DNA from: Antedon mediterranea
Taxonomy: Eukaryota; Animalia; Echinodermata
Length of the DNA stretch: 64,000 bases
NCBI RefSeq assembly: GCF_964355755.1
Contig: NC_092675.1
Location: forward strand, 23,532,912-23,596,911
Direction: 5' to 3'
The notes beneath the pieces are model-generated. The model saw only the letters and a list, made by a program, of their open reading frames with translations, made no database searches and was not told where the DNA came from. A program made the translations under genes and the position numbers. Below are positions 11,457-58,262 of this stretch, piece after piece (position 1 is the first letter of the stretch; each line of letters opens with the position of its first letter).

Positions 11457-19293
<7,837 letters not shown>

Positions 19294-25091: not shown

Positions 25092-31616
<6,525 letters not shown>

Positions 31617-32085: not shown

Positions 32086-33181
32086 CAAAGTGGCCATTTA
32101 ATAGGGGTAGCCATAGTGTTAAAACATATATTTTCCTTGTTGATTTCATTGCAAAGTGGCCATTTAATAGGGTTGTCCCATGAGTAGGGGTTAGCCATAG
32201 TGTTAAAACATATATTTTCCTTGTTGATTTCATTGCAAAGTGGCCATTTAATAGGGTTGTCCCATGAGGGGGTTAGCCATAATGTTAAAACATATATTTT
32301 CCTTGTTGATTTCATTGCAAAGTGGCCATTTAATAGGGTTGTCCCATGAGTAGGGGTTAGCCATAGTGTTAAAACATATATTTTCCTTGTTGATTTCATT
32401 GCAAAGTGGCCATTTAATAGGGTTGTCCCATGAGTAGGGGTTAGCCATAATATTAAAACATATATTTTCCTTGTTGATTTCATTGCAAAGTGGCCATTTA
32501 ATAGAGTTGTCCCATGAGGGGCGTAAGCCACAATGTTAAAACATATATTTTCCTTGTTGATTTCATTGCAAAGTGGCCATTCAATAGGGTTGTCCCATGA
32601 GTAGTGGGTTAGCCATAATGTTAAAACATATATTTTCCTTGTTGATTTCATTGCAAAGTGGCCATTTGATAGGGTTGTCCCATGAGTAGGGGTTGTCCCA
32701 TGAGTAGGGGTTAGCCATAGTGTTAAAACATATATTTTTCTTGTTGATTTTATTGCAAAGTGGCCATTTAATAGGGTTGTCCCATGAGTAGGGGTTAGCC
32801 ATAATATTAAAACATATATTTTCCTTGTTGATTTCATTGCAAAGTGGCCATTTAATAGGGTTGTCCCATGAGTAGGGGTTAGCCATAATATTAAAACATA
32901 TATTTTCCTTGTTGATTTCATTGCAAAGTGGCCATTTAATAGGGTTGTCCCATGAGGGGGTTAGCCATAATGTTAAAACATATATTTTCCTTGTTGATTT
33001 CATTGCAAAGTGGCCATTTAATAGGGTTGTCCCATGAGTAGGGATTAGCCATAATGTTAAAACATATATTTTGCTTGTTGATTTCATTGCAAAGTGGCCA
33101 TTTAATAGGGTTGTCCCATGAGTAGGGGTTAGCCATAATGTTAAAACATATATTTTCCTTGTTGATTTCATTGCAAAGTGG
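32086..33181. repeat. 84-bp minisatellite, about 13 copies
   Basis: Unit CAAAGTGGCCATTTAATAGGGTTGTCCCATGAGTAGGGGTTAGCCATA(A/G)TGTTAAAACATATATTTTCCTTGTTGATTTCATTG. Confidence 0.95.
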
Positions 33182-34303
33182 CGAATAAATGCATGATAGC
33201 GATACTTATTTTACATTTCAAAACGTTTTAAGATTAATTTTTATGTAAATAGATTATTACAGTTAAATGCCTTAACCAAAAATATGAGTTCTAGGCAATG
33301 TGTATAATAATGATTTCATCATATTGTAGTTACATATACTTAATCAGCTGTAATGAAACTCGATCATATGCCCTGTGTCTGGTTGTCAATGGGTTTTCCT
33401 TTTCTGTCTTTGTGTGACTTCAACATGAAAAAACAGCTTTTTCTGTAAATCCACCAAGTTTTCTGAGAGTTAATTATCCTAAAGATTAGGTTTTTATATA
33501 GACTGTAACATATTAACATAGCAAATGATAGTTAGTAATTGCCAGTCTTGTCTTACAACACTGAAAGGCGCTAGGATTGATTCGTTTATTTAGTACATGG
33601 AAGAGGTTTTTATGATTTATCAAATGCCTAAAACAAAGATGGATTTATTAAGGGTGGGTTTACAGGAAGAATGTTGTTAGGGTTCTTCCTAATAAATTCT
33701 AGGAACAATTGTGTGTAACTTGTCTAGTTTTATCATTGTGTTTTGTTTTCCAAAGCATTTATTCCAGAATGTGATGTGTGTTATTGACTCGAACCCTTGC
33801 AGATGTTATGGCTACGTATTATGGTTCCACTTATTTGCACATTAGTGCTCTTTTTTATAAAGGGAACGGGACTGTGAACCTGCGATGTGATTGCGTCGCG
33901 TCCAGAGCTTTTTGAATCACATGAGTATTATTCAAACCGTCACAACCCATTTGCTGACATTGTTTGCGGTTCGCGTTCACGACAGTCGTCTGTTGTCGAT
34001 ACTTTTAACAATAATTTACATTACAAAGCCACAAATATCTAAACTCATTATATATCTAAATCTAAATTCTTCTTCTAAAAAAAAAAATAATTGTCAATAA
34101 TATAAAGGTAGGGTAGTAATCTATAATCGTAAAATCTATGATAAAGGAATCACATAAAAATAAAGCCTCGCCGCATTGAACCGGCAAAACAGTAATATCA
34201 CCAAAAATCCCCTTTATCATAGATACAATAATAGATATTATATCAAACCCTTTATCAGGAGTTTGACTGAATGAATGAATGGTACCAGGCTACAACAAAC
34301 GTT

Positions 34304-37300
34304 AACTAGACATGAAACTCGTCACTTTGACGAGTTAGTTATCCGCACCACGACAAACGCCACGTGCACGTCATACGTTGGAATATTGCACACAGATAAA
34401 GATTATGGCATTATGACAAGAACTGAAGAATATGATATGCTGTTAGTGCTGAATTCTGTCAATTTTGTGTCATATAGTATATACATGCAAACAGTATAAT
34501 CTGTATACATATTACATACAGTGTAGAATAGGTGAAATTACGGGACCCGCCATTTATTCCAATTTTTAACATGGCGACGGTATCAAAATGAAACACTTAG
34601 ATAGCAATTTCAGAAGGAAATTATCTTAGGAACAACATATTAACGTGTAGAAGAAATTTGAATACGTAAAATATAGATGCGCACCCTTTTAAATGTGATG
34701 AACTATTACGCAAAATATAAAAATACAACTTTTTTTATTCAACTGGCCATATGATGACGTCACAACATCCGATTGGCAAAATGTTTACATGAATTCGTAT
34801 CTACAATCCAATTGCTTCCAGAAAACGTTTTAATCGTGATTATCACATTTTATTCTTACGAGCTATTACAGAATAAAATTTACTGTAAAGATGAAATTAA
34901 TGACCCACGTAATTAAAATTTTTAGGCATGATGACGTCATAAAAATTAAAATATTTTTATCTCATGCTAAAGAAAGTTGATTGACCTACACAATGTATAA
35001 ATGTAGGAGAAAAAGGAAAACAGATAAGCGTGATGCGCTCCATTGAATGTGATGAGCAATAACGAAAGAGACAAAAATCCTATATTTTACATTCGTGTGG
35101 CCATACGATGACGTCACAATGTTTTTTTAGCCTTATCGATGCATGATCCGATATCTACAACTCATCAACTTCTAGATTTTGTAATAAAAATAAACGGTTC
35201 ACGGTTTACTTTAGAAACTATGACTGTTTAAAAAAAGACAAAATTTTGACGATTTTTTAAGCTTTTTCATAAAAAACGCGCATGAAATGTTTAATTCAAC
35301 GTGTTCGTGTGGCGTTATTTAAATTGGAAAAGGTCTAAATTGTTTTCAAAATTACTAGGAAAGACTTGAAAAATATAATTCAAGAAAAAAAAAATGTTTT
35401 TAACGCTACGTGCGCACCGCGTGCGTAAAAAATTGCGCGCCCGTGGGAATTTTTGACATGCTCAAAATGACAAGAAACGCATAAAAAGTTGATTAGAAAT
35501 TAATTTTGCGCATTTTGAAATTTTAAATGCGCGTGCGTGCGTAACTTCTTGTGAAACATGCCATTTCTAATCCGTAGAAAGTTTGCCCCTGATATGACTT
35601 AAATTTTGTCAAAGTGTCAATACTAAATGACTTTTGGTTTTTAATCTATGATCAATCATTGAAATTCATAAAATTGCGCGTAAGTCACGTTGCGCAACTA
35701 TGACGTCATTCAAAAATAGGAGGTGCACAACTTCACGTAAATGCCCATATGTTGTCAAAGTTATGAAATGTTATGTTTACACATTTTAGAGAAACGCGAT
35801 CCACAAAAAGGAAGGATGGAAAGAAGAACTAGACATGAAACTCGTCACTTTGACGAGTTAGTTATCCGCACCACGACAAACGCCACGTGCACGTCATACG
35901 TTTGAATATTGCACACCGAAAAAGATTATGTCATTATGACCTGAACTGAAGAATATGATGTGTTGTTAGTACTGAATGCTGTATATTTTCTGTCATATAG
36001 TATACACAGTATAATCTGTATACATGTCACAAACAGTGTAAAATAGGTGAAATTACGGGACCCATATTTTATTTTAATTTTCAAAAGGAAACGCGAAGGT
36101 ACTGTAGTAATTTCGGAAGAAAATTATCTCAGCAACAACATATTAACGTTTAGAAGAAATTTGAATACGTGAAACATTAATGCGCGCTTTTTTAAATGTA
36201 ATGAACTATGACGCAAAAGATGAAAATATGACTTTGTTTATTTAACTGGCCATATGATGACGTCACAACATCTGATTGGCGAAAAGTTCACATGATTTCG
36301 TATCTACAATCCCATAGCTTCCTGAAAACGTTATAATCGTGATTATCACATTTTATTCTTACGAGCTATAACAGATTAAAATTTACTGTAAAGATGAAAT
36401 TAATGACGCTGTTAATTAAAATTTTTAGGCATGGCGACGTCATAAAAATTAAAATTATTTTTAACTCATGCGTAAGATAGTTGATTGACCTAGACAATAT
36501 TAAAATCTCAGAGAAAAAGGAATACAGATAGGCGTGATGCGCTCCATTGAATATGATGAGCAATAATGAAAGAGACAAAAATCCTATATTTTACATTCGT
36601 GTGGCCATACGATGACGTCACAATGTCCGGTTAGCCATATTGATTCATGATCCGATTTCTACAACTCATCAACTTCCAGAATATGTAATTAAAAAAAAGT
36701 TCACCTCGTTGTTTAGAATCTATGACTGTTTAAAAAAAGGCATAATTTTGACAAATTTTTGAACTTTTTCATCAAAAACGCACGTAAAGTATCCAATTCA
36801 ACGTGCCCGTATGACGTAATTGTAAGTCGAAATTGTTTTAAAATTGGTAAAATTACTATAAAAGGCTGGAAAAACATAATTCAATAAAAAAAAAATACTT
36901 TTAGCGCTACGTGCGCACCACGCACATAAAATTGTTCGCGCGCGTGGGAAATTTTGACATGGTCAAAATGTCATGATCAGCGTAGAAAGTTGATTAAAAA
37001 TTAATTTTGCGCATTTTGAATTTTAAATGCGCGTGCGCGCGTAACTTTGTGTAAAACACGCAATTTTTTTCCACAGAAAGTTAGCGCATGATATAAATTC
37101 AACTTTTGCTAAGTTTCAATTTAAATTGGTATATGGTTTTAAATCTATGTTAAATACGCGAAATTCATAAAATCGTGCGTAAGTCACGTTGCGCATTTCT
37201 GACGTCATTCACAATAGGAGGTGCACAACTTCACGTGAATGCCCATATGTTGACAAAGTTATGAAATGTTATGTTTACACGTTTTTGAGATACGAGAGAT

Positions 37301-40300
37301 ACAAAAATAGAGGAGAAATGCGCGTGCGCGCGTAACGTCTTGTAAAACATGGCATTTTTAATCCACAAAAAGTTTGCCCTTGATATGACTTAAATTTTCA
37401 CAAAGTGTCAAAACAAATTTATGCTTGGTTTTTAGTCTATGATCAATCATAAAAAATCATAAAATCGCACGTAAGTCACGTTGCGCAACTCTGACGTCAT
37501 TAAAAAATAGGAGGTGCACAACTTCACGTAAATGTCCATATGATGACAAAGTTATGAAATGTTATGTGTACAAGTTTTTGAGATACGCGAGACACAAAAA
37601 TGGAGGAGAAAGAAAGAAGAATAATACTAGACATGTAACTCGTCACTTTGACGAGTTAGTTATCCGCACGACAAACGCCACGTGCACGTCATACGTTGGA
37701 ATATTGCACACAGAAAAACATTATAGCATTATGACCTGAACTGAAAAATATGATATGTTGTTAGTGCTGAATTCTGTCAATTTTGTGTCAAATAGTATAT
37801 ATAGTATAATATGTATACATATTACATACACAGTGTAGAATAATTGAAATTATGGGACCTGCAATGTTGCAGTATCACATAGGTATATAAGATGTACCGA
37901 TTGCAACATTGACTGCCACATAAAATGTGGACGAGTGTCTCCAACCGAATATAATGGATAAGTGGAGATGCGCTCTATTAAACGTGATAAGCTATGACGA
38001 AAGATACAAAAATCCTATATTTTATATTCGTGTGGCCATACGATGACGTCACAATGTCCGGTTAGCCATATTAATGTATGATTCGATATTTACAACTCAC
38101 CAACTTCAAGAATATGTAATAAAAATAACTTTCACCGTTTAGTTTAGAAACTACGACTGTTTTAAAAAAGGCATAATTTTGACAAATTTTTGAACTTTTT
38201 CATCAAAAAAGCGCACAAATTGTTCAATTCGACGTGCTCGTATGACGTGATTTTAAGTCGAAATGGTTTAAAAGTTGGTAAAATTACTAAAAAAACGCTA
38301 GAAAAACATAAATCACGAGAAAAAAATATGTTTTCAACGCTACATGCGCACCGCGCACGTAAAAATTTGCAGGTGCGTGAGAATTTTTGACATGCTTAAA
38401 ATTACATGAAACGCGTAGAAAGTTGATTAGAAATTAATTTTGCGCATTTTGAAATTTTAAATGCGCGTGCGCGCGTAACTTTGTGTGAAACATGCCATTT
38501 TTAATCCACATAAAATTGACTCTTGATATAAATTAAATTTTCACCAAGTCTCAATACAAATCGACTTTTGGTTTTTAATCTATGATCAATCATTTAAATT
38601 CATAAAATTGCGTGCAAGTCACGTTGCGCAACTCTGACGTTTTTCAAAAATAGGATGTGCACAACTTCACGTAAATGTCTATATTTTGACAAAGTTACGA
38701 TATGTTCTGTTTACACATTTTAGAGAAACAGGCTCACAAAAAAAGGAAGAAAGTGAAATTTTAAATGCGCGTGCGCGCGTAATTTCTTGCAAAACATACC
38801 ATTTTTAATCGATAGAAAGTTAGCGTAAGATATAAATTAAACTTTTGCCAAGTTTCAGTTTAAAATGTTTTATGGTTTTCGATCTATGTTAAATACGCGA
38901 AATTCATAAAATCGCGCGTAAGTCACGTTGCGCAACTCTGACGTCATTCAAAAATAGGAGGTGCACAAGTTCACGTAAATGCCCACATGTTGTCAAAGTT
39001 ATGAAATGTTATGTTTACACATTTCAGAGAAACGCTCTACACAAAAATGGAAGGAAAGAAAGAAGAATAATACAGAAAAAAAAAGTGATGATCCCATACA
39101 ATAACAAGGAGTTATCCGCCAAGTGCGGATAACTAATAAAGAAAAAAAAAAAAAAGATCCAGGACGATTACAAGGAGTTATCCGCTACTAAGCGGATAAC
39201 TAATAATACAGAAAAACTAGATTTGAACTCGTCACTTTGACGAGTTCGGGTTATCCGCAGCGCAAAAGCCACGTGCACGTCATACGGTAGAATATTGCGC
39301 GCAGAAAAACGATTATGCCATTGAAAAAATGTTAGCGCGCTCTCTCTATTTTGTGTCACGTCTAAGTATATACGGTATAACACTATGTACTGTATACGTA
39401 CTACATACAGTGCACAATAGGTGCAAATAAGTGACCAAAGTTATTGACGCTTTTGCACATGATGACGTCATAAACATTTTAAAAATGGTGAATCATGCGA
39501 AAGATAATTGATTGACCTAGACAATATATAAAAATGGAGGGAAATGGAATACGGATAAGTGGAGATGCGCTCTATTAAATGTGATGAGCTATGCGAAAAA
39601 GACAAAAATCCTATATTTTATATTCGAGTGGCCATACGATGACGTCATAATGTCCAGTTAGCCATATCGATGCATGATTTGATATCTACCACTCATCATC
39701 TTTCAGAATCTGAAATTTTAAAAATGTTCACCACGGAGTTTAGAATCTATGACTTTTTAAAGAAAGGCATAATTTTCACGAATTTTTGAACTTTTTCATC
39801 AAAAACGCGCGCAAATTGTTCAATTCGACGTGCTTGTATGACGTAATTTTAAGTCGAAATTGATTGAAAATTGGTAATTTTACTAGAAAAGGCCGAAAAA
39901 ACAAAAATCAAGCAAAAAAAAAGATATTTTTGCGCCACGTGCGTACGCGCGCGTAAAAAAATTGCGCACGCGTGGGAATTTTTGAAATGCTCAAAATGAC
40001 ATGAAACGCGTAGAAAGTTGATTAGAAGTTGATTTTTCGCATTTTGAAATTTTAAACGCGCGTGCGCGCGTAACTTTTTTTTAAACATGCCATTTTTAAT
40101 CCATAGAAAGTTTGCCCTTGATATGACTTAAATTTTCTCCAAGTGTTATTACAAAATGACTTTTGGTTTATAATCTATGACCAATCATTGAAATTCATAA
40201 AATCGCGCGTAAGTCACGTTGCGCAACTCTGACGTCATTCAAAATATGGAGGTGCACAACTTCAGGTAAATGTCCATATAATGAAAAAGTTATACAAAAG

Positions 40301-43300
40301 ATATATTCACAAGAAATAGGGGATATGCTGCTCACAAAAATCCGGGAAAGAAAGAAGAACTAGACATGAAACTCGTCACTTTGACGAGTTAGTTATCCGC
40401 ACCACGACAAACGCCACGTGCACGTCATACGTTGGAATATTGCACACAGATAAAGATTATGGCATTATGACAAGAACTGAAGAATATGATATGCTGTTAG
40501 TGCTGAATTTTGTCAATTTTGTGTCATATAGTATATACAGTGCAAACCGTAATCTGTATACATATTACATACAGTGTAGAATAGGTGAAATTACTGGACC
40601 CGCCATTTATTCAAATTTTTAACATGGCGACGGTATCAAAATGGAACACTTAGATAGCAATTTCGGAAGGAAATTATCTCAGGAACAACATATTCAAGTG
40701 TAGAAGAAATTTTAATACGTAAAATATAGATGTGCGCCCTTTTAAATGTGATGAACTATTACGTAAAATATGAAAAAACGACTTTTTTTATTCAACTGGC
40801 CATATGATGACGTCAGAACATCCGATTGGCAAAATGTTTACATGAATTCGTATCTACAATCCAATAGCTTCCAGAAAACGTTGTAATCATGATTATCACT
40901 TTTTATTCTGACGAGCTATAACAGATTGAAATTTAATTTAAAGATGAAAATATGTGACCCACGTTATTTACATTTTAGACATGATGACGTTAGAAAAATT
41001 AAAATATATTTAACTCATGCGAAAGATAGTTGATTGACGGAGACAATATTAAAATCTCGGGGGAAATGGAATACGTATAAGCGAGATGCGCTCTGTTGAA
41101 TGTGATGAGCAATAACGAAAGAGACAAAAATCCTATATTTTACATTCGTGTGGCCATACGATGACATCACAATGTCCGGTTAGCCATATTGATTCATGAT
41201 CCGATATCTACAACTCATCAACTTCCAGAATATGTAATTAAAAAAAGGTTTACCTCGTAGTTTAGAATCTATGACTGTTTAAAAAAAGGCATAATTTTGA
41301 CAAATTGTTGAACTTTTTCATTAAAAAGGCGTGCAAATTGAACAATTCGACGTGCTCGTATGACGTAATTTTAAGTAGAAATTGTATAAAAATTGGTCAA
41401 ATTACTATAAAAGGCTTATAAAACATAATTCACGCAAAAAAAAAGATGTTTTAGCGCTACGTTCGCCACCGCGCGCGTAAAAATTTGCGCGCCCGTGGGA
41501 ATTTTTTACATGCGCAAAATGTCATGAATCGCGTAAAAAGTTGATTAGAAATTAATTTTGCGCAATTTGAAATTTTAAATACGCGTGCGCGCGTAACTTC
41601 TTGTAAAACGTGCCATTTTTAATCCACAAAAAGTTTGCCCCTGATATGACTTAAATTTTCACAAAGTGTCAAAACAAAATTATGCTTGGTTTTTAGTCTA
41701 TGATCAATCATAAAAAATCATAAAATCGCGCGTAAGTCATGTTGCGCAACTCTGACGTCATTCAAAAATAGGAGGTGCACAACTTCACGTAAATGCCCAT
41801 ATGTTGATAAAGTTATGAAATGTTATGTTTACAAGTTTTTGAGATACGTTCTGCACAAAAATGGGGGAGAAAGAAAGAAGCAGAAAAAGATCCAGGACGA
41901 TTACAAGGAGTTATCCGCTCAATGCGGATAACTAACTAGACATGAAACTCGTCACTTTGACGAGTTAGTTATCCGCACGACAGATGCCACGTGCACGTCA
42001 TACGTTAAAAACTATAATAAGAGGTGGTCCTGTATTTTCGCCTTGTAGCCTATTATAATTATACAGTACACTGTGTATAAAAGAAGACATTAATTCTACA
42101 TGATACAGAGGGCAGCAAACAACAATTTGCTCACATCAGAGACTATGCTGGTGTACATTGTACTACTGTATTATTATATGACATATTAACTGAATTATGG
42201 GACCTGCCTTTAATTCAAATATTTAACATGATGACGTCATAAAAAAAACAACACAACGATAGCAATTTCTGAAGAAAATTATCTTAGCAACAACATATTA
42301 ACGTGTAGAAGAAATTTGAATACGTAAAATGTTGGTGCGCGCACATTTAAATGTGATGAACTATTACGCAAAATATGAAAATACGACTCTTTTTATTCAA
42401 CTGGCAATATGATGACGTCACAACATCCGATTGGCAAAATGTTTACATGAATTCGTATCTACAATCCTATAGCTTCCAGAAAACGTTTTAATCGTGATTA
42501 TCACATTTTATTCTTACGAGCTATTACAGATTAAAATTTACTGTAAAGATGAAATTAATGACCCACGTAATTAAAATTTTTAGGCATGATGACGTTATAA
42601 AAATTAAAATATTTTTATCTCATGCTAAAGAAAGTTGATTAACCTAGACAATATATAAATATAGGAGAAAAAGGAATACAGATAAGCGTGATGCGCTCCA
42701 TTGAATGTGATGAGCAATAACGAAACAGACAAAAATCCTATATTTTACATTCGTGTGGCCATACGATTACGTCACAATGTTTTTTTGGCCTTATCGATGC
42801 ATGATCCGATATCTGCAACTCATCGACTTCTAGATTTTGTAATAAAAATAAACGGTTCACGGTTTACTTTAGAAACTATGACTGTTTAAAAAAAGACATT
42901 ATTTTGATGATTTTTTAAGCTTTTTCATAAAAAACGCGCACAAATTGTCTAATTCAACGTGTTCGTATGGCGTTATTTAAACTGGAAAAGTTCTAAATTG
43001 TTTTCAAAATTACTAGGAAAGGCTTGAAAAATATAATTCAAGAGAAAAAAATATGTTTTTATCGCTACGTGCGCACCGCGTGCGTAAAAAATCGCGCGCC
43101 CGTGGGAATTTTTGACATGCTCAAAATGACATGAAACGCGTAAAAAGTTGATTAGAAATTAATTTTGCGCATTTTGAAATTTTAAATGCGTGTGCGCGCG
43201 TAACTTCTTGTGAAACATGCCATTTTTAATCCGTAGAAAGTTTGCCCCTGATATGACTTAAATTTTGTCAAAGTGTCAATACTAAATGACTTTTGGTTTT

Positions 43301-46300
43301 TAATCTATGATCAATCATTGAAATTCATAAAATTGCGCGTAAGTCACGTTGCGCAACTATGACGTCATTCAAAAATAGGAGGTGCACAACTTCACGTAAA
43401 TGCCCATATGTTGTCAAAGTTATGAAATGTTATGTTTACACATTTTAGAGAAACGCGACTCACAAAAAGGAAGGAAGGAAAGAAGAACTAGACATGTAAC
43501 TCGTCACTTTGACGAGTTTGGTTATCCGCCGCGCAAGTGGTGCAACATTAACATTAAGGGGATAGGTTGAGGACAAAAGGAAGTGTTCACGTTGGCATTA
43601 TGACCTGAACTGAAGAATATGATCTGTTGTTATTGCTGAATTTTATTATTTAAATTCATATATAGTATACACAGTATAATCTGTATCCATATCACATACA
43701 GTGTAGAATAGGTGAAATTACGGGACCCGCTATTTATTGCAATTTTTAACATGTTGATGGTTTTAAAATGAAACGCGAAGTTAGCAATTCCGAAAGAAAA
43801 TTATCTCAGCAACAACGTATTAGCGTGTAGAAGAAATTTGAATACGTTAAATATTGATGCGCGCTCTTTTAAATGTAATGAATTATGACGAAAAAGATGA
43901 AAATACGACCTTTTTTATTTAACTGGCCATATGATGACGTCACAACATCCGATTGGCAACATTTTTACATAATTTCATATCTACAATCCAATAGCTTCCA
44001 GAAAAAGTTTTAATCGTGATTATCACATTTTATTCTTACGAGCTATAACAGATTAAAATTTACTGTAAAGATGAAATTGATGCCACACGTGATTTAAATT
44101 TTTAGGCATGATGACGTCAAAAAAATTAAAATATTTTTAACTCATGCGAAAGATAGTTGATTGACCTAGACAATATCAAAATCGGGGTGAAAATGGAAAA
44201 CGGATAAGTGGAGATGCGCTCTATTCAATGTGATGAGCTATGACGAAAGATACAAAAATACTAAATTTTATATTCGCGTGGCCATACGATGACGTCACAA
44301 TGTCCGGTTAGCCATATTAATACCTGATCCGATATCTACAACTCATCTACTTCCAGAATATGTCATCCACAAAAATTTGACCGTCTAGTTTAGAAATTAC
44401 GACTGTTTAAAAAAAGGCATATTTTAAACGAATTTTTTAACCTTTTCATAAAAAACGCGCGCAAATTGTCCAATTCGACGTGCTCGTATGACGTATCTTT
44501 AAGTCGAAATTGTTTAAAATTTGGTAAAATTACTAGAAAAGGCTGGAAAAACATAAATCACGCGAAAAAAATACGTTTTCAATGCTACGTGCGCACCGCA
44601 CACGTAGAAATGTGCGCACGCGTGGGAATTTTTGACATGCTTAAAACGACATGAAACGCGTAGAAAGTTGATTATAAATAAATTTTGCGCATTTTGAAAT
44701 TTTAAATGTGCGTGCGCGCGTAACTTTGTGTAAAACACGCAATTTTTTTTCAACAGAAATTTAGCGCATGATATAAATTAAACTTTTGCAAAGTTTCACT
44801 TTAAAATGTTATTTGGTTTTCGACATATGTTAAATACGATAAAATCGTTAAATCGCGCGTACGTCACGTTGCGCAATTGTAAACATCATGAAAAGCTTCG
44901 CTTGACGACGTTACATAAATGTCAAAATGTTAACATAGTTAACAAAATGTTATGTTTGCGAGTTTTAGAGAAAAGCGTTACACAAAAATCATACAGAAAG
45001 AAAGAAGAAGAATAACTAGACATGTAACTCGTCACTTTGACGAGTTAGTTATCCGCACGACAAACGCCACGTGCACGTCATACGTTAGAATATTGCACAC
45101 AGAAAAAATTATGGCATTATGACCTGATCTGAAGAATATGATATGTTGTTAGTGCTGAATTCTGTCAATTTTGTGTCATATAGTATATACATGCAAACAG
45201 TATAATCTGTATACATGTTACATACAGTGTAGAATAGGTGAAATTACGGGACCCGCCATTTATTCAAATTTGTAAAAACATGGCGACGGTATCAAGATGA
45301 AACACTAAGATAGCAATTTCGGAAGCAAATTATCTCAGCAACAACATATTAACGTGTAGAAGAAATTTGAATACGTTTAATATTGATGCGCGCTCTTTTA
45401 AATATAATGAACTATGATGCAAAAGATGAAAATACGACTTTTTTTATTTAACTTGCAATATGATGACGTCACAGCATCTGATTGGCAAAATGTTCACATG
45501 ATTTCATATCTACAATCCAAGAGCTTCCAGAAAATGTTTTAATCGTGATTATCACATTTTATTTTGACGGGCTATTACAGATTAAAATTTACTGTAAAGA
45601 TGAAATTAATGACCCACGTAATTAAAATTTTTAGGCATGATGACGTCATAAAAATTAAAATATTTTTATCTCATGCGAAAGATAGTTGATTGACCTAGAC
45701 AATATTAAAATCAGTGCTGAATTCTGTCAATTTTGTGTCATATAGTATATACATGCAAACAGTATAATCTGTATACATGTTACATACAGTGTAGAATAGG
45801 TGAAATTACGGGACCCGCCATTTATTCAAATTTGTAAAAACATGGCGACGGTATCAAGATGAAACACTAAGATAGCAATTTCGGAAGCAAATTATCTCAG
45901 CAACAACATATTAACGTGTAGAAGAAATTTGAATACGTTTAATATTGATGCGCGCTCTTTTAAATATAATGAACTATGATGCAAAAGATGAAAATACGAC
46001 TTTTTTTATTTAACTTGCAATATGATGACGTCACAGCATCTGATTGGCAAAATGTTCACATGATTTCATATCTACAATCCAAGAGCTTCCAGAAAATGTT
46101 TTAATCGTGATTATCACATTTTATTTTGACGGGCTATTACAGATTAAAATTTACTGTAAAGATGAAATTAATGACCCACGTAATTAAAATTTTTAGGCAT
46201 GATGACGTCATAAAAATTAAAATATTTTTATCTCATGCGAAAGATAGTTGATTGACCTAGACAATATTAAAATCTCGGAGAAAAAGAAATACGTATAAGC

Positions 46301-49300
46301 GTGATGCGCTCCATTGAATGTGATGAGCAATAACGAAAGACAAAAAAATCCTATATTTTACATTCGTGTGGCCATATGATGACGTCACAACATCCGTGAG
46401 GTAAAAATTCTGCATGAATTCATATCTACAACATATCTGCTTACATATTAAGTTAAAAAAATTAGGGGTAATCGTTGATCTTGAGAAGCTATAAAACATT
46501 CAAAATAGGCATAATTTTGACAACATTTTGTAACTTTTTCAACTAAAACGCGCGCAAATGGGCTAAATCAACGTGTTCGTATGACGTCATTTTAATTTGA
46601 AATGATGTCAATCTTTTTGAAAATGACTAGGAAAGGCTGGAAAATCACAATTCAAGAGAAAAAAACATGATTTTCATGCTCTATGCGCACCGTGCGCGTA
46701 ATATTTTTCGCGCGCGCGGTAATTTTGTACATGCTTAAAATGACATGAAACGCGTAGAAAGTTGATTAGAAATTATTTTTGCGCATTTTGAAATTTTAAA
46801 TGCGCGTGCGCGCGTAACTTTGTGTAAAACACGCAATTTTTTTCAAACAGAAAGTTAGCGCATGATATAAATTAAACTTTCACAAAGTGTCAAATAAAAA
46901 TCACTTTTAGTTTTTAATCTATGATCAATCATAAAAAATCATAAAATCGCGCGTAAGTCACGTTACGCAACTCTGACGTAATTCAAAAATAGGAGGTGCA
47001 GAACTTCACGTAAATGCCCACATGTTGTCAAAGTTATAAAATGTTATGTTTACAAATTTTAGAGAAACGCTCTACACAAAAATAGCGAGAAAGAAAGAAG
47101 AATAATACAGAAAAAAATATTGATCCCATACAATAACAAGGAGTTATCCGCCAAGTGCGGATAACTAAAAAGTTGATGATGATGATGATGATGATGATTT
47201 CGTACAATCACAAGAGGTTATCCTGCAACTTCGTTGCGGATAACCAATTAAGAAAAAGATGTTGATGATGATGATTTCGTACAATCACAAGAGGTTATCC
47301 TGCAACTTCGTTGCGGATAACCAATAAAAAGTTGATGTTGATGATTTCGTACAATCACAAGAGGTTATCCTGCAACTTCGTTGCGGATAACCAATGAAAC
47401 TCGTCACTTTGACGAGTTAGTTATCCGCTCGACAAACGCCACGTGCACGTCATACGTTAGAATATTGCACACAGAGAAATATTAAGGCATTATGACCTGA
47501 ACTGAAGAATATGATATGTTGTTATTTCTGAATTCTGTTATTTTGTGTCATATAGTATACACAGTACAATCTGTATACATATCACAAACAGTGTAAAATA
47601 GGTGAAATTACGGGACCCGTATTTTATTGTAATTTTTAACATCTTGACGGTTTCAAAATGAAATGCAAAAGTAGAAATTTCAGAATGAAATTATCTCAGC
47701 AACAACATATTAACGTGTAGAAGAAATTTGAATACGTGAAATATTGATGCGCGCTCTTTTAAATGTAATGAAATATAATGCAAAAGATGAAAATACGACT
47801 TTTTGTATTTAACTGGCCATATGATGACGTCACAACATTCGATTGGCACAATTTTCACATGATTTTGTATCTACAATACAATAGCTTCCTGAAAACGTTT
47901 TAATCCTGATTATCACATTTTATTCTTACGAGCTATAACAGATTAAAATTTACTGTAAAGATGAAATTAATGACCAACATAATTTAAATTTTTAGGCATG
48001 ATGACGATAAAAAAATTAAAAAATGTTTAATTCATGCAAAAGATAGTTGATTGACCTAGAATATATTAAAATCGGGGTGAAAATCGACTACGAATAAGTG
48101 GAGATGCGCTCTATTAAATGTGATGAGCTATGACGAAAGAGACAAAAATCCTATATTTTATATTCGCGTGGCCATACGATGACGTCACAATGTCCGGTTA
48201 GCCATATTAATGCATGATTCGATATCTACAACTCATCAACTTCCAGAATATGTAATTAAAAAAAAGTTCTCCATGTAGTTTAGAATCTATGACTGTTAAA
48301 AAATAGGCATAATTTTGACGAATTTTTGAACTTTTTCACCAGAAACGCGTGCAAATTATTTAATTCGACGTGCTCGTATGACGTAATTTTAAGTCGAAAT
48401 TGTTTAAAGGTTGGTAACATTACTATAAAAGGCTGAAAAAACATGAATCACGCGAAAAAAATATGTTTTTAACTCTAAGTGTGCACCGCGTGCGTAAAAA
48501 GTTTTGCGCGCGTGGGAATTTTTGACATGCTCAAAATGACATGAAACGCATAGAAAGTTGATTAGAAGTTGATTTTTCGCACTCTAAAATTTTAAACGCG
48601 CGTGCGCGCGTAACTTTTTGTGAAACATGCTATTTTTAATCCATAGGAAGTTTGCGCTTGATGTGACTTAAATTTTCACAAAGTGTCAAAACAAAATTAT
48701 GTTTCGTTTTTAGTCTATGATCAATCATTGAAATTCATAAAATCACGCGTAAGTCACGTTGTGCAACTCTGACGTCATTCAAAAATAGGAGGTGCACAAG
48801 TTCACGTAAATGTCGATATGTTGACAAAGTTACGATATGTTCTGTTTACACGTTTTAGAGAAACGCGACGCACAAAAATGACAGAAGGAAAGAAGTATAC
48901 TAGACATGAAACTCGTCACTTTGACGAGTTAGTTATCCGCACCACGACAAACGCCACGTGCACGTCATACGTTGGAATATTGCACACAGATAAAGATTAT
49001 GGCATTATGACAAGAACTGAAGAATAAGATATGCTGTTAGTGCTGAATTCTGTCAATTTTGTGTCATATAGTATATACATGCAAACAGTATAATCTGTAT
49101 ACATATTACATACAGTGTAGAATAGGTGAAATTACGGGACCCGCCATTTATTCCAATTTTTAACATGGCGACGGTATCAAAATGAAACACTTAGATACCA
49201 ATTTCAGAAGGAAATTATCTCAGGAAAAACATATTAACGTGTAGAAGAAATTTGAATACGTAAAATATAGATGCGCACCCTTTTAAATGTGATGAACTAT

Positions 49301-52300
49301 TACGCAAAATATGAAAATACGACTTTTTTTATTCAACTGGCCATATGATGACGTCACAACATTCGATTGGCACAATTTTCACATGATTTTGTATCTACTA
49401 TACAATAGCTTCCTGTAAATGTTTTAATTGTGATTATCACATTTTATTCTTACGAGCTATAACAGATTAAAATTTACTGTAAAGATGAAATTAATGACCA
49501 ACGTAATTTAAATTTTTAGGCATGATGACGTTAAACAAATTAAAAAATTTTTAATTCATGCAAAAGATAGTTGATTGACCTAGAATATATTAAAATCGGG
49601 GTGAAAATGTACAAAAAATAAGTGGAGATGCGCTCTATTAAATGTGATGAGCTATGACGAAAGAGACAAAAATCCTATATTTTATATTCGCGTGGCCATA
49701 CGATGACGTCACAATGTCCGGTTAGCCATATTAATGCATGATCCGATATCTACAACTCATCAACTTCCAGAATATGTAATTAAAAAAAAGTTCTCCATGT
49801 AGTTTAGAATCTATGACTGTTTAAAAATAGGCATAATTTTGACGAATTTTGGAACTTTTTCACCAAAAACGCGTGCAAATTATCTAATTCGACGTGCTCG
49901 TATGACGTAATTTTAAGTCGAAATTGTTTAAAAGTTGGTAACATTACTAGAAAAGGCTGAAAAAACATAAATCATGCAAAAAAAATATGTTTTTAACGCT
50001 TCGTGTGCACCGCGTGCGTAAAAATTTTCGCGCGCGTGGGAATTTTTGACATGCTCAAAATAACATGAAACGCATAGAAAGTTGATTAGAAGTTGATTTT
50101 TCCCACGGTAAAATTTTAAACGCGCGTGCGCGCGTAACTTTTTGTGAAACATGCTATTTTTAATCCATAGAAAGTTTGCGCTTGATATGACTTAAATTTT
50201 CACAAAGTGTCAAAACAAAATTATGTTTGGTTTTTAGTCTATGATCAATCATTGAAATTCATAAAATCGCGCATAAGTCACGTTGCGCAACTCTGACGTC
50301 ATTCAAAAATAGGAGGTGCACAAGTTCACGTAAATGTCGATATGTTGAGAAAGTTACGATATGTTCTGTTTACACGTTTTAGAGAAACACGACGCACAAA
50401 AATGACAGAAGGAAAGAAGTATAATACAGAAAAAAAAAAAAAATATGATGAAACAGGACGATTACAAGGAGTTATCCGCTACTAAGCGGATAACTAACTA
50501 GACATGTAACTCGTCACTTTGACGAGTTTGGTTATCCGCCGCGCAAGTGGTGCAACATTAACATTAAGGGGATAGGTTGAGGACAAAAGGAAGTGTTCAC
50601 GTTGGCATTATGACCTGAACTGAAGAATATGATATGTTGTTATTGCTGAATTTTATTATTTAAATTCATATATAGTATACACAGTATAATCTGTATCCAT
50701 ATCACATACAGTGACATACAGTGTAGAATAGGTGAATTTACGGGACCCGCTATTTATTGCAATTTTTAACATGTTGACGGTTTTAAAATGAAACGCGAAG
50801 GTAGCAATTCTGAAAGGAAACTATCTCAGCAACAACGTATTAGCGTGTAGAAGAAATTTGAATACGTGAAATATTGATGCGCGCTCTTTTAAATGTAATG
50901 AATTATGACGCAAAAGATGAAAATACGACCTTTTTTATTTAACTGGCCATATGATGACGTCACAACATCCGATTGGCAACATTTTTACATAATTTCGTAT
51001 CTACAATCTAATAGCTTCCAGAAAAAGTTTTAATCGTGATTATCACATTTTATTCTTACGAGCTATAACAGATTAAAATTTACTGTAAAGATGAAATTGA
51101 TGCCACACGTGATTTAAATTTTTAGGCATGATGACGTCAAAAAAATTAAAATATTTTTAACTCATGCGAAAGATAGTTGATTGACCTAGACAATATCAAA
51201 ATCGGGGTGAAAATGGAAAACGGATAAGTCGAGATGCGCTCTATTCAATGTGATGACCTATGACGAAAGATACAAAAATCCTAAATTTTATATTCGCGTG
51301 GCCATACGATGACGTCACAATGTCCGGTTAGCCATATTAATACCTGATCCGATATCTACAACTCATCTACTTCCAGAATATGTCATCCACAAAAATTTGA
51401 CCGTCTAGTTTAGAAATTACGACTGTTTAAAAAAAGGCATATTTTAAACGAATTTTTTAACCTTTTCATAAAAAACGCGCGCAAATTGTCCAATTCGACG
51501 TGCTCGTATGACGTATCTTTAAGTCGAAATTATTTAAAATTTGGTAAAATTACTAGAAAAGGCTGGAAAAACATAAATCACGCGAAAAAAAAACGTTTTT
51601 AATGCTACGTGCGCACCGCACACGTAGAAATGTGCGCACGCGTGGGAATTTTTGACATGCTTAAAACGACATGAAACACGTAGAAAGTTGATTATAAATT
51701 AATTTTGCGCATTTTGAAATTTTAAATGTGCGTGCGCGCGTAACTTTGTGTAAAACACGCAATTTTTTTTTAGCAGAAAGTTAGCGCATGGTATAAATTA
51801 AACTTTTGCAAATTTTCAAGTTGAAATGTTATTTGGTTGTCGAGCTATGTTAAATACGACAAAATCGTTAAATCACGCGTAAGTCACGTTGCGCAATTGT
51901 AAACGTCATGAAAAGCTTCGCTTGACGACGTTACGTAAATGTCAATATGTTAAGATAGTTACCGAAATGTTATGTTTGCGAGTTTTAGAGAAAAGCGTTA
52001 CACAAAAATCATACAGAAAGAAAGAAGAAGAACTAGACATGTAACTCGTCACTTTGACGAGTTTGGTTATCCGCCGCGCAAGTGGTGCAACATTAACATT
52101 AAGGGGATAGGTTGAGGACAAAAGGAAGTGTTCACGTTGGCATTATGACCTGAACTGAAGAATATGATATGTTGTTATTGCTGAATTTTATTATTTAAAT
52201 TCATATATAGTATACACAGTCTAATCTGTATCCATATCACATACAGTGTAGAATAGGTGAAATTACGGGACCCGCTATTTATTGCAATTTTTAACATGTT

Positions 52301-55300
52301 GACGGTTTTAAAATGAAACGCGAAGGTAGCAATTCCGAAAGTAAATTATCTCAGCAACAACGTATTAGCGTGTAGAAGAAATTTGAATACGTGAAATATT
52401 GATGCGCGCTCTTTTAAATGTAATGAATTATGACGCAAAAGATGAAAATACGACCTTTTTTATTTAACTGGCCATATGATGACGTCACAACATCCGATTG
52501 GCAACATTTTAACATAATTTCGTATCTACAATCCAATAGCTTCCAGAAAAAGTTTTAATCGTGATTATCACATTTTATTCTTACGAGCTATAACAGATTA
52601 AAATTTACTGTAAAGATGAAATTGATGCCACACGTGATTTCAATTTTTAGGCATGATGACGTCATAAAAATTAAAATATTTTTCACTCATGCGAAAGATA
52701 GTTGATTGACCTAGACAATATCAAAATCGGGGTGAAAATGGAAAACGGATAAGTGGAGATGCGCTCTATTCAATGTGATGAGCTATGACGAAAGATACAA
52801 AAATCCTAAATTTTATATTCGCGTGGCCATACGATGACGTCACAATGTCCGGTTAGCCATATTAATACCTGATCCGATATCTACAACTCATCTACTTCCA
52901 GAATATGCCATCCACAAAAAGTTGACCGTTTAGTTTAGAAATTACGACTGTTTAAAAAAAGGCATATTTTAAACGAATTTTTTAACCTTTTCATAAAAAA
53001 CGCGCGCAAATTGTCCAATTCGACGTGCTCGTATGACGTATCTTTAAGTCGAAATTGTTAAAAATTTGGTAAAATTACATGAAAAGGCTGGAAAAACATA
53101 AATCACGCGAAAAAAATACGTTTTCAATGCTACGTGCGCACCGCACACGTAAAAATGTGCGCACGCGTGGGAATTTTTTACATGCTTAAAACGACATGAA
53201 ACGCGTAGAAAGTTGATTATAAATTAGTTTCGCGCATTTTGAAATTTTAAATGCGCGTGCGCGCGTAACTTTGTGTAAAACACGCAATTTTTTTTCAACA
53301 GAAAGTTAGCGCATGATATAAATTAAACTTTTGCAAAGTTTCAAGTTGAAATGTTATTTGGTTTTCGACATATGTTCAATACGAGAAAATCGTTAAATCG
53401 CGCGTACGTCACTTTGCGCAATTGTAAACATCATGAAAAGCTTCGCTTGACGACGTTACATAAATGTCAAAATGTTAACATAGTTAACAAAATGTTATGT
53501 TTGCAAGTTTCAGAGAAAAGCGTTACACAAAAATCATACAGAAAGAAAGAAGAAGAATAAAAAGTTGATGATGATGATGATTTCGTACAATCACAAGAGG
53601 TTATCCTGCAACTTCGTTGCGGATAACCAATAACTAGACATGTAACTCGTCACTTTGACGAGTTAGTTATCCGCACGACAAACGCCACGTGCACGTCATA
53701 CGTTAGAATATTGCACACAGAAAAAATTATGGCATTATGACCTGATCTGAAGAATATGATATGTTGTTAGTGCTGAATTCTGTCAATTTTGTGTCATATA
53801 GTATATACATGCAAACAGTATAATCTGTATACATGTTACATACAGTGTAGAATAGGTGAAATTACGGGACCCGCCATTTATTCAAATTTGTAAAAACATG
53901 GCGACGGTATCAAGATGAAACACTAAGATAGCAATTTCGGAAGCAAATTATCTCAGCAACAACATATTAACGTGTAGAAGAAATTTGAATACGTTTAATA
54001 TTGATGCGCGCTCTTTTAAATATAATGAACTATGATGCAAAAGATGAAAATACGACTTTTTTTATTTAACTTGCAATATGATGACGTCACAGCATCTGAT
54101 TGGCAAAATGTTCACATGATTTCATATCTACAATCCAAGAGCTTCCAGAAAATGTTTTAATCGTGATTATCACATTTTATTTTGACGGGCTATTACAGAT
54201 TAAAATTTACTGTAAAGATGAAATTAATGACCCACGTAATTAAAATTTTTAGGCATGATGACGTCATAAAAATTAAAATATTTTTATCTCATGCGAAAGA
54301 TAGTTGATTGACCTAGACAATATTAAAATCAGTGCTGAATTCTGTCAATTTTGTGTCATATAGTATATACATGCAAACAGTATAATCTGTATACATGTTA
54401 CATACAGTGTAGAATAGGTGAAATTACGGGACCCGCCATTTATTCAAATTTGTAAAAACATGGCGACGGTATCAAGATGAAACACTAAGATAGCAATTTC
54501 GGAAGCAAATTATCTCAGCAACAACATATTAACGTGTAGAAGAAATTTGAATACGTTTAATATTGATGCGCGCTCTTTTAAATATAATGAACTATGATGC
54601 AAAAGATGAAAATACGACTTTTTTTATTTAACTTGCAATATGATGACGTCACAGCATCTGATTGGCAAAATGTTCACATGATTTCATATCTACAATCCAA
54701 GAGCTTCCAGAAAATGTTTTAATCGTGATTATCACATTTTATTTTGACGGGCTATTACAGATTAAAATTTACTGTAAAGATGAAATTAATGACCCACGTA
54801 ATTAAAATTTTTAGGCATGATGACGTCATAAAAATTAAAATATTTTTATCTCATGCGAAAGATAGTTGATTGACCTAGACAATATTAAAATCTCGGAGAA
54901 AAAGAAATACGTATAAGCGTGATGCGCTCCATTGAATGTGATGAGCAATAACGAAAGACAAAAAAATCCTATATTTTACATTCGTGTGGCCATATGATGA
55001 CGTCACAACATCCGTGAGGTAAAAATTCTGCATGAATTCATATCTACAACATATCTGCTTACATATTAAGTTAAAAAAATTAGGGGTAATCGTTGATCTT
55101 GAGAAGCTATAAAACATTCAAAATAGGCATAATTTTGACAACATTTTGTAACTTTTTCAACTAAAACGCGCGCAAATGGGCTAAATCAACGTGTTCGTAT
55201 GACGTCATTTTAATTTGAAATGATGTCAATCTTTTTGAAAATGACTAGGAAAGGCTGGAAAATCACAATTCAAGAGAAAAAAACATGATTTTCATGCTCT

Positions 55301-56016
55301 ATGCGCACCGTGCGCGTAATATTTTTCGCGCGCGCGGTAATTTTGTACATGCTTAAAATGACATGAAACGCGTAGAAAGTTGATTAGAAATTATTTTTGC
55401 GCATTTTGAAATTTTAAATGCGCGTGCGCGCGTAACTTTGTGTAAAACACGCAATTTTTTTCAAACAGAAAGTTAGCGCATGATATAAATTAAACTTTCA
55501 CAAAGTGTCAAATAAAAATCACTTTTAGTTTTTAATCTATGATCAATCATAAAAAATCATAAAATCGCGCGTAAGTCACGTTACGCAACTCTGACGTAAT
55601 TCAAAAATAGGAGGTGCAGAACTTCACGTAAATGCCCACATGTTGTCAAAGTTATAAAATGTTATGTTTACAAATTTTAGAGAAACGCTCTACACAAAAA
55701 TAGCGAGAAAGAAAGAAGAATAATACAGAAAAAAATATTGATCCCATACAATAACAAGGAGTTATCCGCCAAGTGCGGATAACTAAAAAGTTGATGATGA
55801 TGATGATGATGATGATGATTTCGTACAATCACAAGAGGTTATCCTGCAACTTCGTTGCGGATAACCAATAATACAGAAAAAAAATGTTGATCTCGTACAA
55901 TAACAAGGAGTTATCCGCTTGGTATACCAAGCGGATAACTAATAATACAGAAAAAAACTGTTGATCTCATACAATCACAAGGAGTTATCCGCTTGGTATA
56001 CCAAGCGGATAACTAA
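34304..56016 (-). mobile_element. Array/nest of 13 non-autonomous Helentron-like elements (HINE family 1), 1.1-2.2 kb each, all same orientation
   Basis: Element 3' ends (minus strand GCGGATAAC(T/C)..AACTCGTCA-AAG-TGACGAGTT hairpin..CTAG-T) at about 34304, 35827, 37626, 39215, 40358, 41934, 43486, 45014, 47394 (CTAG missing), 48899, 50496, 52031, 53632. Thirteen 5' ends (TT-(A/G)GTTATCC..loop..GGATAAC) end at about 39136, 39203, 41935, 47168, 47247, 47324, 47394, 50497, 53630, 55786, 55868, 55942, 56016. No TSD and no coding capacity. Confidence 0.88.
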
Positions 56017-56184
56017 TTATAGATGAAATACTTGCAACAAAATATTAAACTAAATAATATGAAATACATTCATGAAAGCTAATAATATACTTTAATGTAT
56101 TATATATTTCGTTAAAAACTTAATTGTTAAGAATTGACGCTGATTATCTCATTTCGCGCTTGTCGTATCATTTTGGGCAGTGGT

Positions 56185-56640
56185 TATTCCACCTACTGAT
56201 GCCTTGGTCGAACTGCGTACATTAATTGATAGACGTCGAGAACTGTGTAGGCCTACCGTACCTTATTTGCCAACCAAAAATCTAGATTCTTCTAGACTGC
56301 ATGCTTTTTTATCTTACAACCCTTCTCCTTATAATATTAGGCATACACGTTTTTTTCAAACTCAATATGATACCAAACGCCATTTTTTCAGTCCTGTTCC
56401 TTTTTGATTAGACTTTTAAATGAATGAATAACTTGTAATTTTTTGCCTTTTATGTAGTTTTAATTTTTCTTCATACATGTTTTTGATGTTCTCTTTGTTT
56501 TATGACCTTTTTCTCAGTTTTTTGTATAACCTTTAAAAGTAATTTTAACCAATTTTTTACATATTTTGTAAATTAAAACGCAATTCAGCAAGTTTGCTAC
56601 CATGTTTTAATCTTTTGTGTTTTGTTTTATGAATAAATAC
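56185..56640 (+). mobile_element. Decayed 3' end of a CR1/L2-group LINE
   Basis: DALVELRTLIDRRRELC...SSRLHAFL...PYNIR...TKRHFFSPVPF then, by frameshift, LIRLLN; T-rich 3' UTR and AATAAA. Confidence 0.6.
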
Positions 56641-57964: not shown

Positions 57965-58262
57965 TAAATTTTCCTTCAACAGAATATGTCTTCTATATAT
58001 ACATACACACATTTATGAACAGTTAATTGCGATATTTGTTTTGCCCAATATCGTATAGAATTTTCAAGAAACATCCTAACTCTCATAGTATCGTAAATTA
58101 AAAACTATACATAGCTCAATAAACTGTAGACTGTGCAAATCGATAGGTTGGAGGAAAAAGTGTAAATTTGAAGATAACAAAACCAACAAAGCAAACTAAT
58201 TTCCTTACGTAGCAATTCTCTATAGTGATTATCAGAATGTGTGTGGTATTTGAGAAACCACA

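What the first reader, a model, noticed from the sequence alone, without database searches (positions are those of the whole stretch)
34304..56016. Self-targeting 'Russian-doll' stack of rolling-circle (Helentron-like) elements
Seen: not a homogeneous satellite. Thirteen bodies (A-M, from visibly different subfamilies) and 13 5'-terminal cassettes occur in an order that parses like brackets. Each new element sits in the GAAGAA(TAA)/A-run about 50-80 bp inside the 5' end of an earlier one, displacing that end downstream. Direct test: intact unit L ends GAAGAAGAATAAAAGTTGATG..GGATAACCAA (53549-53630). Its sibling K is cut into GAAGAAGAA | L | TAA | M | AAAGTTGATG..GGATAACCAA (52031, 53631, 55787), and G into GAAGAAGAATAA | H | AAAGTTGATG (45014, 47168). 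Removing the inserts restores the intact end with no TSD. Last-in-first-out pairing matches subTIR type for 11 units exactly, D approximately and F not; a small deletion at 47394 may have scrambled that part. Knowledge: Helentrons/HINEs (DINE-1 type) have 5' palindromic subTIRs, a 3' subTIR plus hairpin, insert in TT and make no TSD. Their tandem arrays are usually attributed to rolling-circle concatemers of one element. Inference: orientation-specific homing of related elements next to the 5' hairpin of resident copies (perhaps RepHel bound to the subTIR recruits the donor), producing a safe-harbour array that records insertion order and could seed satellites or small-RNA clusters.
Basis: partly seen in the sequence, partly recalled or inferred. 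Interest (0 to 1): 0.85.

Follow-up and report, generated by a model that had tools for sequence, protein, structure and literature searches.

The report
Polymorphic self-nesting rolling-circle transposon stack
A 21.7-kb block of 13 small non-coding transposon-like copies from several subfamilies, all facing one way and sitting inside one another beside each copy's front end, is cleanly missing at the same spot in another sample; it likely grew as rolling-circle elements inserted into their own relatives, a habit already proposed for fungal and maize Helitrons and seen here in an unusually deep animal example.

Summary
Real. 34306-56016 holds 13 CTAG 3' ends and 13 hairpin 5' ends of a HINE/HLE2-type element, all on the minus strand, parsing as balanced brackets. 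Nine of 12 inner 3' ends abut a ~20-nt purine tract near a host's 5' end, in 5 registers; 3 abut another 5' end; none lies elsewhere. New: a 602-nt contig from another sample joins 34305 to 56017, so the whole 21,711-bp block is absent there, with no target duplication. That run still holds about 60% of the sampled array words, and neighbours are no more alike than non-neighbours, so units came from subfamilies elsewhere. The 'exact insertion record' is overstated: the subTIR test is weak (p=0.11) and finer head types contradict F and I; two extra truncated bodies exist, and H equals M exactly. Likely: self-preferring insertion plus composite moves and deletions. Self-insertion is in print for Fusarium and maize Helitrons, and this scan noted similar nests in other genomes. 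No RepHel partner or source reads seen.

The parts
34306..56016 (-). Whole nest, 21,711 bp, from outer 3' CTAG end (34306) to outer 5' end (56016)
   Evidence: absent precisely in run X1 contig
34306..35828 (-). Body A with 3' end (CTAG, stem-loop, 12-bp subTIR); cut in its purine tract
35829..37315 (-). Body B with 3' end; stops inside its tract
37316..37626 (-). Extra truncated body X (5'-side 311 bp, no CTAG end; 93% like E); break at an internal hairpin
37627..38753 (-). Body C with 3' end, internally deleted
38754..39136 (-). Extra truncated body Y plus head c1 (type 1)
39137..39203 (-). Displaced head c2 (type 2; fits X/E)
39204..39216 (-). 13-nt remnant of a host tract in front of D; its own head not identified
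39217..40359 (-). Body D, divergent subfamily, with 3' end
40360..41935 (-). Intact unit E with head c3 (type 2)
41936..43487 (-). Body F (A-like 5' side; odd segment near 42010-42190 also held by contigs of runs X5, X6)
43488..45015 (-). Body G (L/K subfamily), cut at TAA|AAAG by H
45016..47168 (-). Intact unit H with head c4; exact 562-bp tandem duplication 45151-45712 = 45713-46274
47169..47394 (-). Three stacked type-3 heads c5, c6, c7 (only one G-type body precedes them)
47395..48899 (-). Body I; lacks at least the last 7 nt of the 3' end; no matching head found
48900..50497 (-). Intact unit J with head c8 (A-like 3' third, I-like remainder)
50498..52032 (-). Body K, cut by L and M
52033..53630 (-). 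Intact unit L with head c9; serves as the empty-site model for G and K
53634..55786 (-). Intact unit M with head c10; identical to H
55787..55868 (-). Displaced head c11 (type 3; K's)
55869..56016 (-). Displaced heads c12 and c13 (type 4; by sequence likely F's and A's)

Best explanation
The block is a one-orientation nest of non-coding HINE/Helentron-type elements of several subfamilies that is absent without target duplication in another sample, and it likely grew because a rolling-circle transposase, supplied in trans, prefers to join incoming copies to the T-rich strand 60-85 nt inside the 5' end of a resident relative, probably because that strand is exposed next to the enzyme when it loads on the resident 5' hairpin. 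Shown: anatomy, nesting, cut sites, precise empty allele, mixed subfamilies. Inferred: each insertion pushes the host's head downstream and adds a fresh target, so nests grow faster as they grow; some events likely brought composites (outer head to first CTAG gives spare heads such as c5-c7; bypass of a CTAG gives headless bodies such as I), and slippage or deletion among stacked heads blurred the order. The 13 = 13 balance is then partly chance and the number of events is probably below 13 (at least 5 cut registers plus the founder).
For: Ends and hairpins. Nine of 12 inner 3' ends in the tract, 3 of 12 against another head, 0 elsewhere, 0 of 13 reversed; the 40-nt window holds 2.3-4.1% of a unit's TT sites or 6-22% of its A-rich sites, giving 1e-8 to 5e-4 for 5 registers (computed for units L and J). 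Empty allele: one 602-nt contig, depth 271, covers 33802-34305 and 56017-56114, its loose letters equal 34273-34302. Run X1 holds 0.64 of sampled words of 33250-43200, about 0.60 of the array part. Adjacent identity 0.876 vs non-adjacent 0.874, p=0.40. Junction types not in this array appear in contigs of runs X1, X5, X6 (tract-to-CTAG joints 39075>45014 and 39216>41934; heads followed by host-tract letters in 2 of 8 shown loose-end rows with an intact 5' end). [quoted passage not shown]
Against: No RepHel gene or genome was available, so the enzyme step is untested. The tract is also a rare sequence (about 0.1 per kb outside the array), so sequence preference alone could contribute. Five of the 8 shown loose-end rows with an intact 5' end have other A-rich flanks (24 rows not shown): many copies are dispersed. 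The joints at other loci have sides under 30 letters and unknown letters between. Head types contradict the bracket pairing for F and I. H = M may be one event copied by conversion (G and K are identical in their last 68 nt). No laid run shows the filled junctions. The locus was picked because it is an array, so the probabilities are upper-level guides only.
Confidence: 0.55

Rival explanations
1. Sequence preference only: the element carries the best target for its own enzyme (a long pyrimidine/T tract on the inserted strand), so copies pile up there with no role for the hairpin or bound protein.
For: HINEs prefer T-rich targets (PMC4067079, passages). Such tracts are rare outside the array, 4 in about 41 kb, and present once in 2 of 3 intact units tested. 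Cuts follow the sequence although the distance to the 5' end varies from 61 to 85 nt.
Against: The founder site and the dispersed flanks seen are ordinary A-rich DNA, not long purine tracts; generic A-rich windows occur at 2.2 per kb. Three inner ends abut a head directly.
Confidence: 0.25
2. The nest was assembled elsewhere and arrived here in one or a few rolling-circle moves from the outer 5' end through many bypassed 3' ends.
For: Flanks of the empty and filled alleles differ at 1 of 602 letters, suggesting a young insertion, while B, C, X, Y, D look rearranged. Fusarium copies with several 5' ends have transposed as units (PMC5148889, passages).
Against: A single move needs 12 bypassed terminators. 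It does not replace self-insertion; it only moves where it happened. No second copy of the block could be sought.
Confidence: 0.12
3. Local tandem amplification (rolling-circle concatemer of one element or unequal crossing-over) made the array; the brackets are a by-product.
For: H = M, an exact 562-bp duplication, I/J 95% and K/L 97% are neighbours or near-identical; three head-to-CTAG junctions are what concatemers give.
Against: Units are 83-90% alike for most pairs, the closest relative is adjacent for only 2 of 13; five cut registers; a run with the empty site holds most array words.
Confidence: 0.05
4. Assembly artefact: collapsed or mis-joined repeat reads placed at this site.
For: No laid run holds the filled junctions; H = M and an exact internal duplication are patterns that mis-assembly can give.
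Against: The block starts and ends at exact element termini, leaves the empty site intact to the base, and inner cuts restore a sibling exactly.
Confidence: 0.03

Closest known systems
HINE / DINE-1 non-autonomous Helentrons (Thomas, Vadnagara & Pritham 2014, PMC4067079; passages read); HLE2 of Li et al. 2024 (PMC11417382; passages)
   Same: 12-bp subTIRs, 5' inverted repeat, 3' stem-loop, microsatellite, T-rich TT target, no TSD, no coding capacity; a Xenopus HLE2 with two unlike 5' ends in direct repeat is described.
   Different: The passages read mention tandem arrays and clustering, not a narrow self-target or deep cross-subfamily nests. The 3' end here is CTAG; the middle has one degenerate 143-bp repeat, not a satellite array.
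FoHeli self-insertion in Fusarium oxysporum (Chellapan et al. 2016, PMC5148889; PMC13342296; passages read)
   Same: Non-canonical Helitrons with 2-5 stacked short 5' ends, explained by self-insertion and composite moves; a Metarhizium triple possibly inserted twice into a 5' end.
   Different: There mostly one 3' end with spare heads, one subgroup, nest inferred; here 13 3' ends of several subfamilies survive, cut sites are readable and the empty allele is seen.
Maize Helitrons with multiple termini from nested copies (PMC3288121, passages) and truncated tandem arrays of Xiong et al. 2016 (seen only through the review PMC12628747)
   Same: Multiple ends from nesting or rolling-circle amplification.
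   Different: Canonical HLE1; no fixed site next to the 5' hairpin reported in the passages read.
Oyster Cg_HINE and 'shuffled' Helitron loci (PMC7492417; PMC12628747; passages)
   Same: Same end anatomy in a marine invertebrate; element parts found inside other elements.
   Different: Arrays are internal satellite repeats in mixed orientations, not an ordered nest of whole elements.
IS30 insertion next to its own inverted repeats (PMC9333248, passages); TE dimers by double insertion (McGurk & Barbash 2018, PMC5932611, passages)
   Same: Works like: dual target choice with an orientation-specific route to the element's own end; insertion preference as a source of tandem arrays.
   Different: DDE chemistry with target duplication; not the same family.

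Membership tests
HINE / non-autonomous HLE2 (Helentron) | Short subterminal inverted repeats at both ends | tested here: met
   12-bp repeat at the 5' end and inverted about 30-40 nt from the 3' end in all 6 intact units; TA/CA variant co-varies in L
HINE / non-autonomous HLE2 (Helentron) | 5' inverted repeat or palindromic subTIR | tested here: met
   hairpins of -11.4 to -17.5 kcal/mol for 4 of 4 head types folded
HINE / non-autonomous HLE2 (Helentron) | Stem-loop after the 3' subTIR | tested here: met
   9-bp stem, -8.3 and -8.8 kcal/mol in A and L; motif in all 13
HINE / non-autonomous HLE2 (Helentron) | Insertion in T-rich/TT site without target duplication | tested here: met
   empty allele joins 34305 to 56017; G and K restore to L. 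Two inner junctions (X|C, I|J) carry 2 extra letters if paired with the next host remnant
HINE / non-autonomous HLE2 (Helentron) | No coding capacity; dispersed multicopy family | tested here: met
   longest stop-to-stop frame in the block 100 aa; no Rfam match; thousands of contigs laid per run and unrelated flanks
HINE / non-autonomous HLE2 (Helentron) | Microsatellite and central tandem repeats | tested here: inconclusive
   short GAA/TGA repeats next to the head; only one 143-bp repeat at 71% inside unit L
HINE / non-autonomous HLE2 (Helentron) | Autonomous RepHel partner with the same ends | not testable with these tools
   no genome is held for the window; none in the window
Canonical Helitron (HLE1) | 5' TC start and insertion between A and T | tested here: not met
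   5' ends start TT, subTIRs present; only the 3' hairpin + CTAG is shared
Homogeneous satellite / single-element concatemer | Neighbours more alike than non-neighbours, one junction type | tested here: not met
   0.876 vs 0.874, p=0.40; at least 5 cut registers

The most novel reading that the evidence does not exclude
HLE2 transposases have a second, protein-guided integration route, the eukaryotic counterpart of IS30 end-targeting: an enzyme engaged on any relative's 5' hairpin captures incoming circles on the strand it has just unwound. The route crosses subfamily lines, is used often genome-wide in at least two species labels, and can build a 22-kb nest on one haplotype while the empty allele still segregates, making self-homing a fast source of large structural variants and satellite seeds.
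Probability: 0.35. Interest if true: 0.75.

Novelty: new variant of a known kind. Interest (0 to 1): 0.52.

Why it matters
How Helitron-like elements choose targets, and how their tandem arrays arise, is open; HLE2 has no published targeting mechanism in the papers I searched. A nest with readable cut sites, mixed subfamilies and a segregating empty allele makes two models (hairpin-bound enzyme versus carried target sequence) directly testable by genome counts and a simple target-plasmid assay. It also warns that such arrays are mis-read as satellites and that 20-kb presence/absence variants can be built from 1.6-kb elements.

Tried and rejected
No genome for the window, so no genome-wide count and no partner search. 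The 3'-hairpin pattern gave 0 matches in viral contigs and 1 in metagenome contigs; that locus has only the 21-mer, with no CTAG end or subTIR, in DNA that reads by eye as bacterial coding sequence: chance. Rfam: 0 matches. No RNA holder listed; small RNAs untested. Strict last-in-first-out pairing rejected as an exact record. Target mimicry of the element's own 3' end: the founder's right flank matches it at 9 of 12 letters, but five other flanks match at 3-6 of 12 (counted by hand), so not adopted. Dating units by private changes: only 40 of 548 rows are shown; inconclusive. Depth was not used as a copy number. Head-to-head pieces (X1 record 1, X5 record 9, X6 record 17) have fewer than 31 letters on one side and count only as hints. 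Scan look-ups by sequence and by place returned nothing. Searches for prior reports: (and 32 for bacterial analogues); none listed a paper on deep ordered HINE nests in animals, but subscription journals and Repbase reports are not covered and supplements were not read. Yang & Bennetzen 2009 (maize Helitrons near other Helitrons) was not read; recalled only.

Full report
1. Observation. The motif scan finds 13 copies of the 3' stem-loop and 13 hairpin heads, all between 34306 and 56016, all in one orientation, none elsewhere in the 64 kb. On the minus strand an intact unit (E, H, J, L, M; C with its extra piece) reads: TT, 12-bp subTIR folded into a 5' hairpin (-11.4 to -17.5 kcal/mol), a pyrimidine/T tract with TTC or TCA repeats, about 1.5 kb of AT-rich non-coding body, the inverted subTIR, a 9-bp stem-loop and CTAG. 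Treated as brackets, the 26 ends balance and close only at 56016 (chance for a random order 0.02).

2. Where the inner ends sit. Of 12 inner 3' ends, 9 abut a host tract (B, C, D, E, G, H, J, L, M) in 5 registers (after GAAGAA, GAATAA, AATAATA, GTATA and in the A-run), 3 abut another head (F, K, and I with at least 7 nt lost), none lies elsewhere and none is reversed. The cuts lie 61-85 nt from a host 5' end. The 40-nt window holds 2.3-4.1% of the TT sites of an intact unit, or 6-22% of its A-rich sites (3 units); five independent hits have a chance of 1e-8 to 5e-4 (values for L and J). The locus was chosen for being an array, so this is a guide, not a test of the genome.

3. The empty allele. 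Laying four public runs on 33600-45100 gave, in run X1, a 602-nt contig of depth 271 covering 33802-34317 with 4 other letters and 86 unlaid letters. I predicted an empty site, because the right flank matches the element start at 9 of 12 letters (3 differences plus one at 33865 make 4). Laying on 55931-56230 returned the same 602-nt, depth-271 contig on 56014-56114 with loose letters equal to 34273-34302; 504 + 98 = 602. So 34305 joins 56017: 21,711 bp absent, nothing duplicated or lost. Depth next to it is 301-322, which fits both haplotypes being empty (inferred). X1 is likely another individual of the same or a very close species: flanks differ at 1 of 602 letters, and it holds 0.64 of the sampled words, not all. 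No laid run (4 of 22 listed) shows the filled junctions, so the block itself rests on the assembly.

4. Units come from elsewhere. Words wholly in the flank are 10% of the query, so X1 holds about 60% of array words although its contig lacks the block; only 23% of them recur inside the array. Pairwise identity runs from 0.83 to 1.00, neighbours 0.876 and non-neighbours 0.874 (p=0.40), and the closest relative is adjacent for 2 of 13 units. F's odd segment is held by contigs of X5 and X6, and 7 X1 contigs continue G's end with the uncut AAAG-TGA sequence. Other loci appear to hold nests too: tract-to-CTAG joints absent from this array in X1 (39075>45014) and in X5 and X6 (39216>41934) (sides 22-23 letters, letters between not known), and heads followed by host-tract letters in 2 of the 8 shown rows with an intact 5' end, one of them with 7 contigs; 5 of the 8 show unrelated A-rich flanks and 1 is too short (24 rows not shown). 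Nested and dispersed copies therefore both exist; their ratio was not measured.

5. The record is imperfect. The subTIR test is binary; on the 7 split units 5 or more matches arise with p=0.11. Heads fall into four types. By the 5'-side 300 bp, G and K take L's type (fits), X takes E's type (fits c2), A and F are 98% alike and fit the two type-4 heads c12 and c13 (both junctions restore the usual tract), so F does not take c6; I is 97% like J but no second head of J's type follows it. There are three type-3 heads after H for one G-type body, two truncated bodies (X, Y) that were not counted, and a 13-nt remnant before D. H equals M over 2153 bp while their hosts differ at 39 positions, none in the last 68 nt: two hits by one active donor, or one hit copied by conversion. 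So 3 of 7 split pairs are well supported, 1 plausible, 2 contradicted, 1 unknown.

6. Mechanism. Established for Helraiser (PMC4778049, passages): the HUH domain cuts single strands, the helicase unwinds from the 5' end, circles form, the 3' hairpin can be bypassed, no local hopping. Inferred here: an enzyme loaded on a resident 5' hairpin frees the T-rich strand just beyond it; that strand takes the incoming circle, which fixes both place and orientation and leaves no duplication. Each arrival adds a target. Starting at an outer head and stopping at the first CTAG gives units with spare heads; bypassing a CTAG gives headless bodies; both explain the mismatches in section 5, as do slips among 70-80-bp stacked heads. 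The main rival is plain preference for a tract that the element carries: such tracts are rare outside (4 in about 41 kb), but the founder site and dispersed flanks are not of that kind. Arrival of a pre-built nest is not excluded and would fit the low flank divergence.

7. Comparison. All tested HINE/HLE2 features are met except central tandem repeats (inconclusive) and the partner (not testable) (PMC4067079, PMC11417382, PMC7492417; passages). Self-insertion with stacked 5' ends is in print for Fusarium (up to five heads; PMC5148889, PMC13342296), maize (PMC3288121) and, as two unlike 5' ends, Xenopus (PMC11417382); passages only were read. PMC13085455 (Helitrons at Paramecium chromosome ends, one orientation, beside telomeric repeats) and PMC12001565 (Xenopus Helitron arrays) were read in passages and describe other arrangements. 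IS30 end-targeting (PMC9333248) is a working analogue from another enzyme family. This scan has noted similar nests in other genomes (five notes; unchecked, not counted as support; the first led me to check the maize and frog papers).

8. Verdict. A real, deep, cross-subfamily nest of a known element type, with a precise empty allele as new evidence. New variant of a known kind; interest 0.52; guided self-homing as the general route 0.35.

Noticed in passing
37316 and 38754: Both truncated bodies X and Y break at the two edges of the loop of one internal 8-bp hairpin and sit in a host tract; early termination or hairpin-driven deletion are both possible.
   Followed up: partly
45016-47168 and 53634-55786: H and M are identical over 2153 bp, each with the same exact 562-bp tandem duplication, at the same cut in hosts that differ by 2.6%.
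   Followed up: partly
34306-56016: 45 TGACGTCA (CRE-type, label recalled) palindromes in the block against 1 in the other 42 kb; CpG observed/expected 1.66 vs 0.81.
   Followed up: no
56017-56028: The founder's right flank matches the element's own 3' end at 9 of 12 letters; other flanks do not.
   Followed up: partly
32102-33190: Tandem array of an 84-bp unit, about 13 copies, 1.1 kb before the nest, with no similarity to it.
   Followed up: no
15938-19293, 23679-24137, 30673-30990 (+): Host genes: alpha-amylase C-terminal domain with a long extension, Tctex-1, TFIIS zinc ribbon exon; intron-split, animal-like. The nest starts about 3.5 kb after the TFIIS exon.
   Followed up: no
13270-15202 and 62206-63285 (+): LINE remnants: RT and zf-RVT; PHD plus endonuclease.
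   Followed up: no
214-357 / 20578-20731 and 8598-8924 / 58262-58583: Two other dispersed repeat pairs in inverted orientation, 71-79% alike.
   Followed up: no
runs X5, X7 (organism B): A second organism label holds 27-41% of the words and the A-type subfamily in great depth but not the flanks checked: the family is shared between labels.
   Followed up: no
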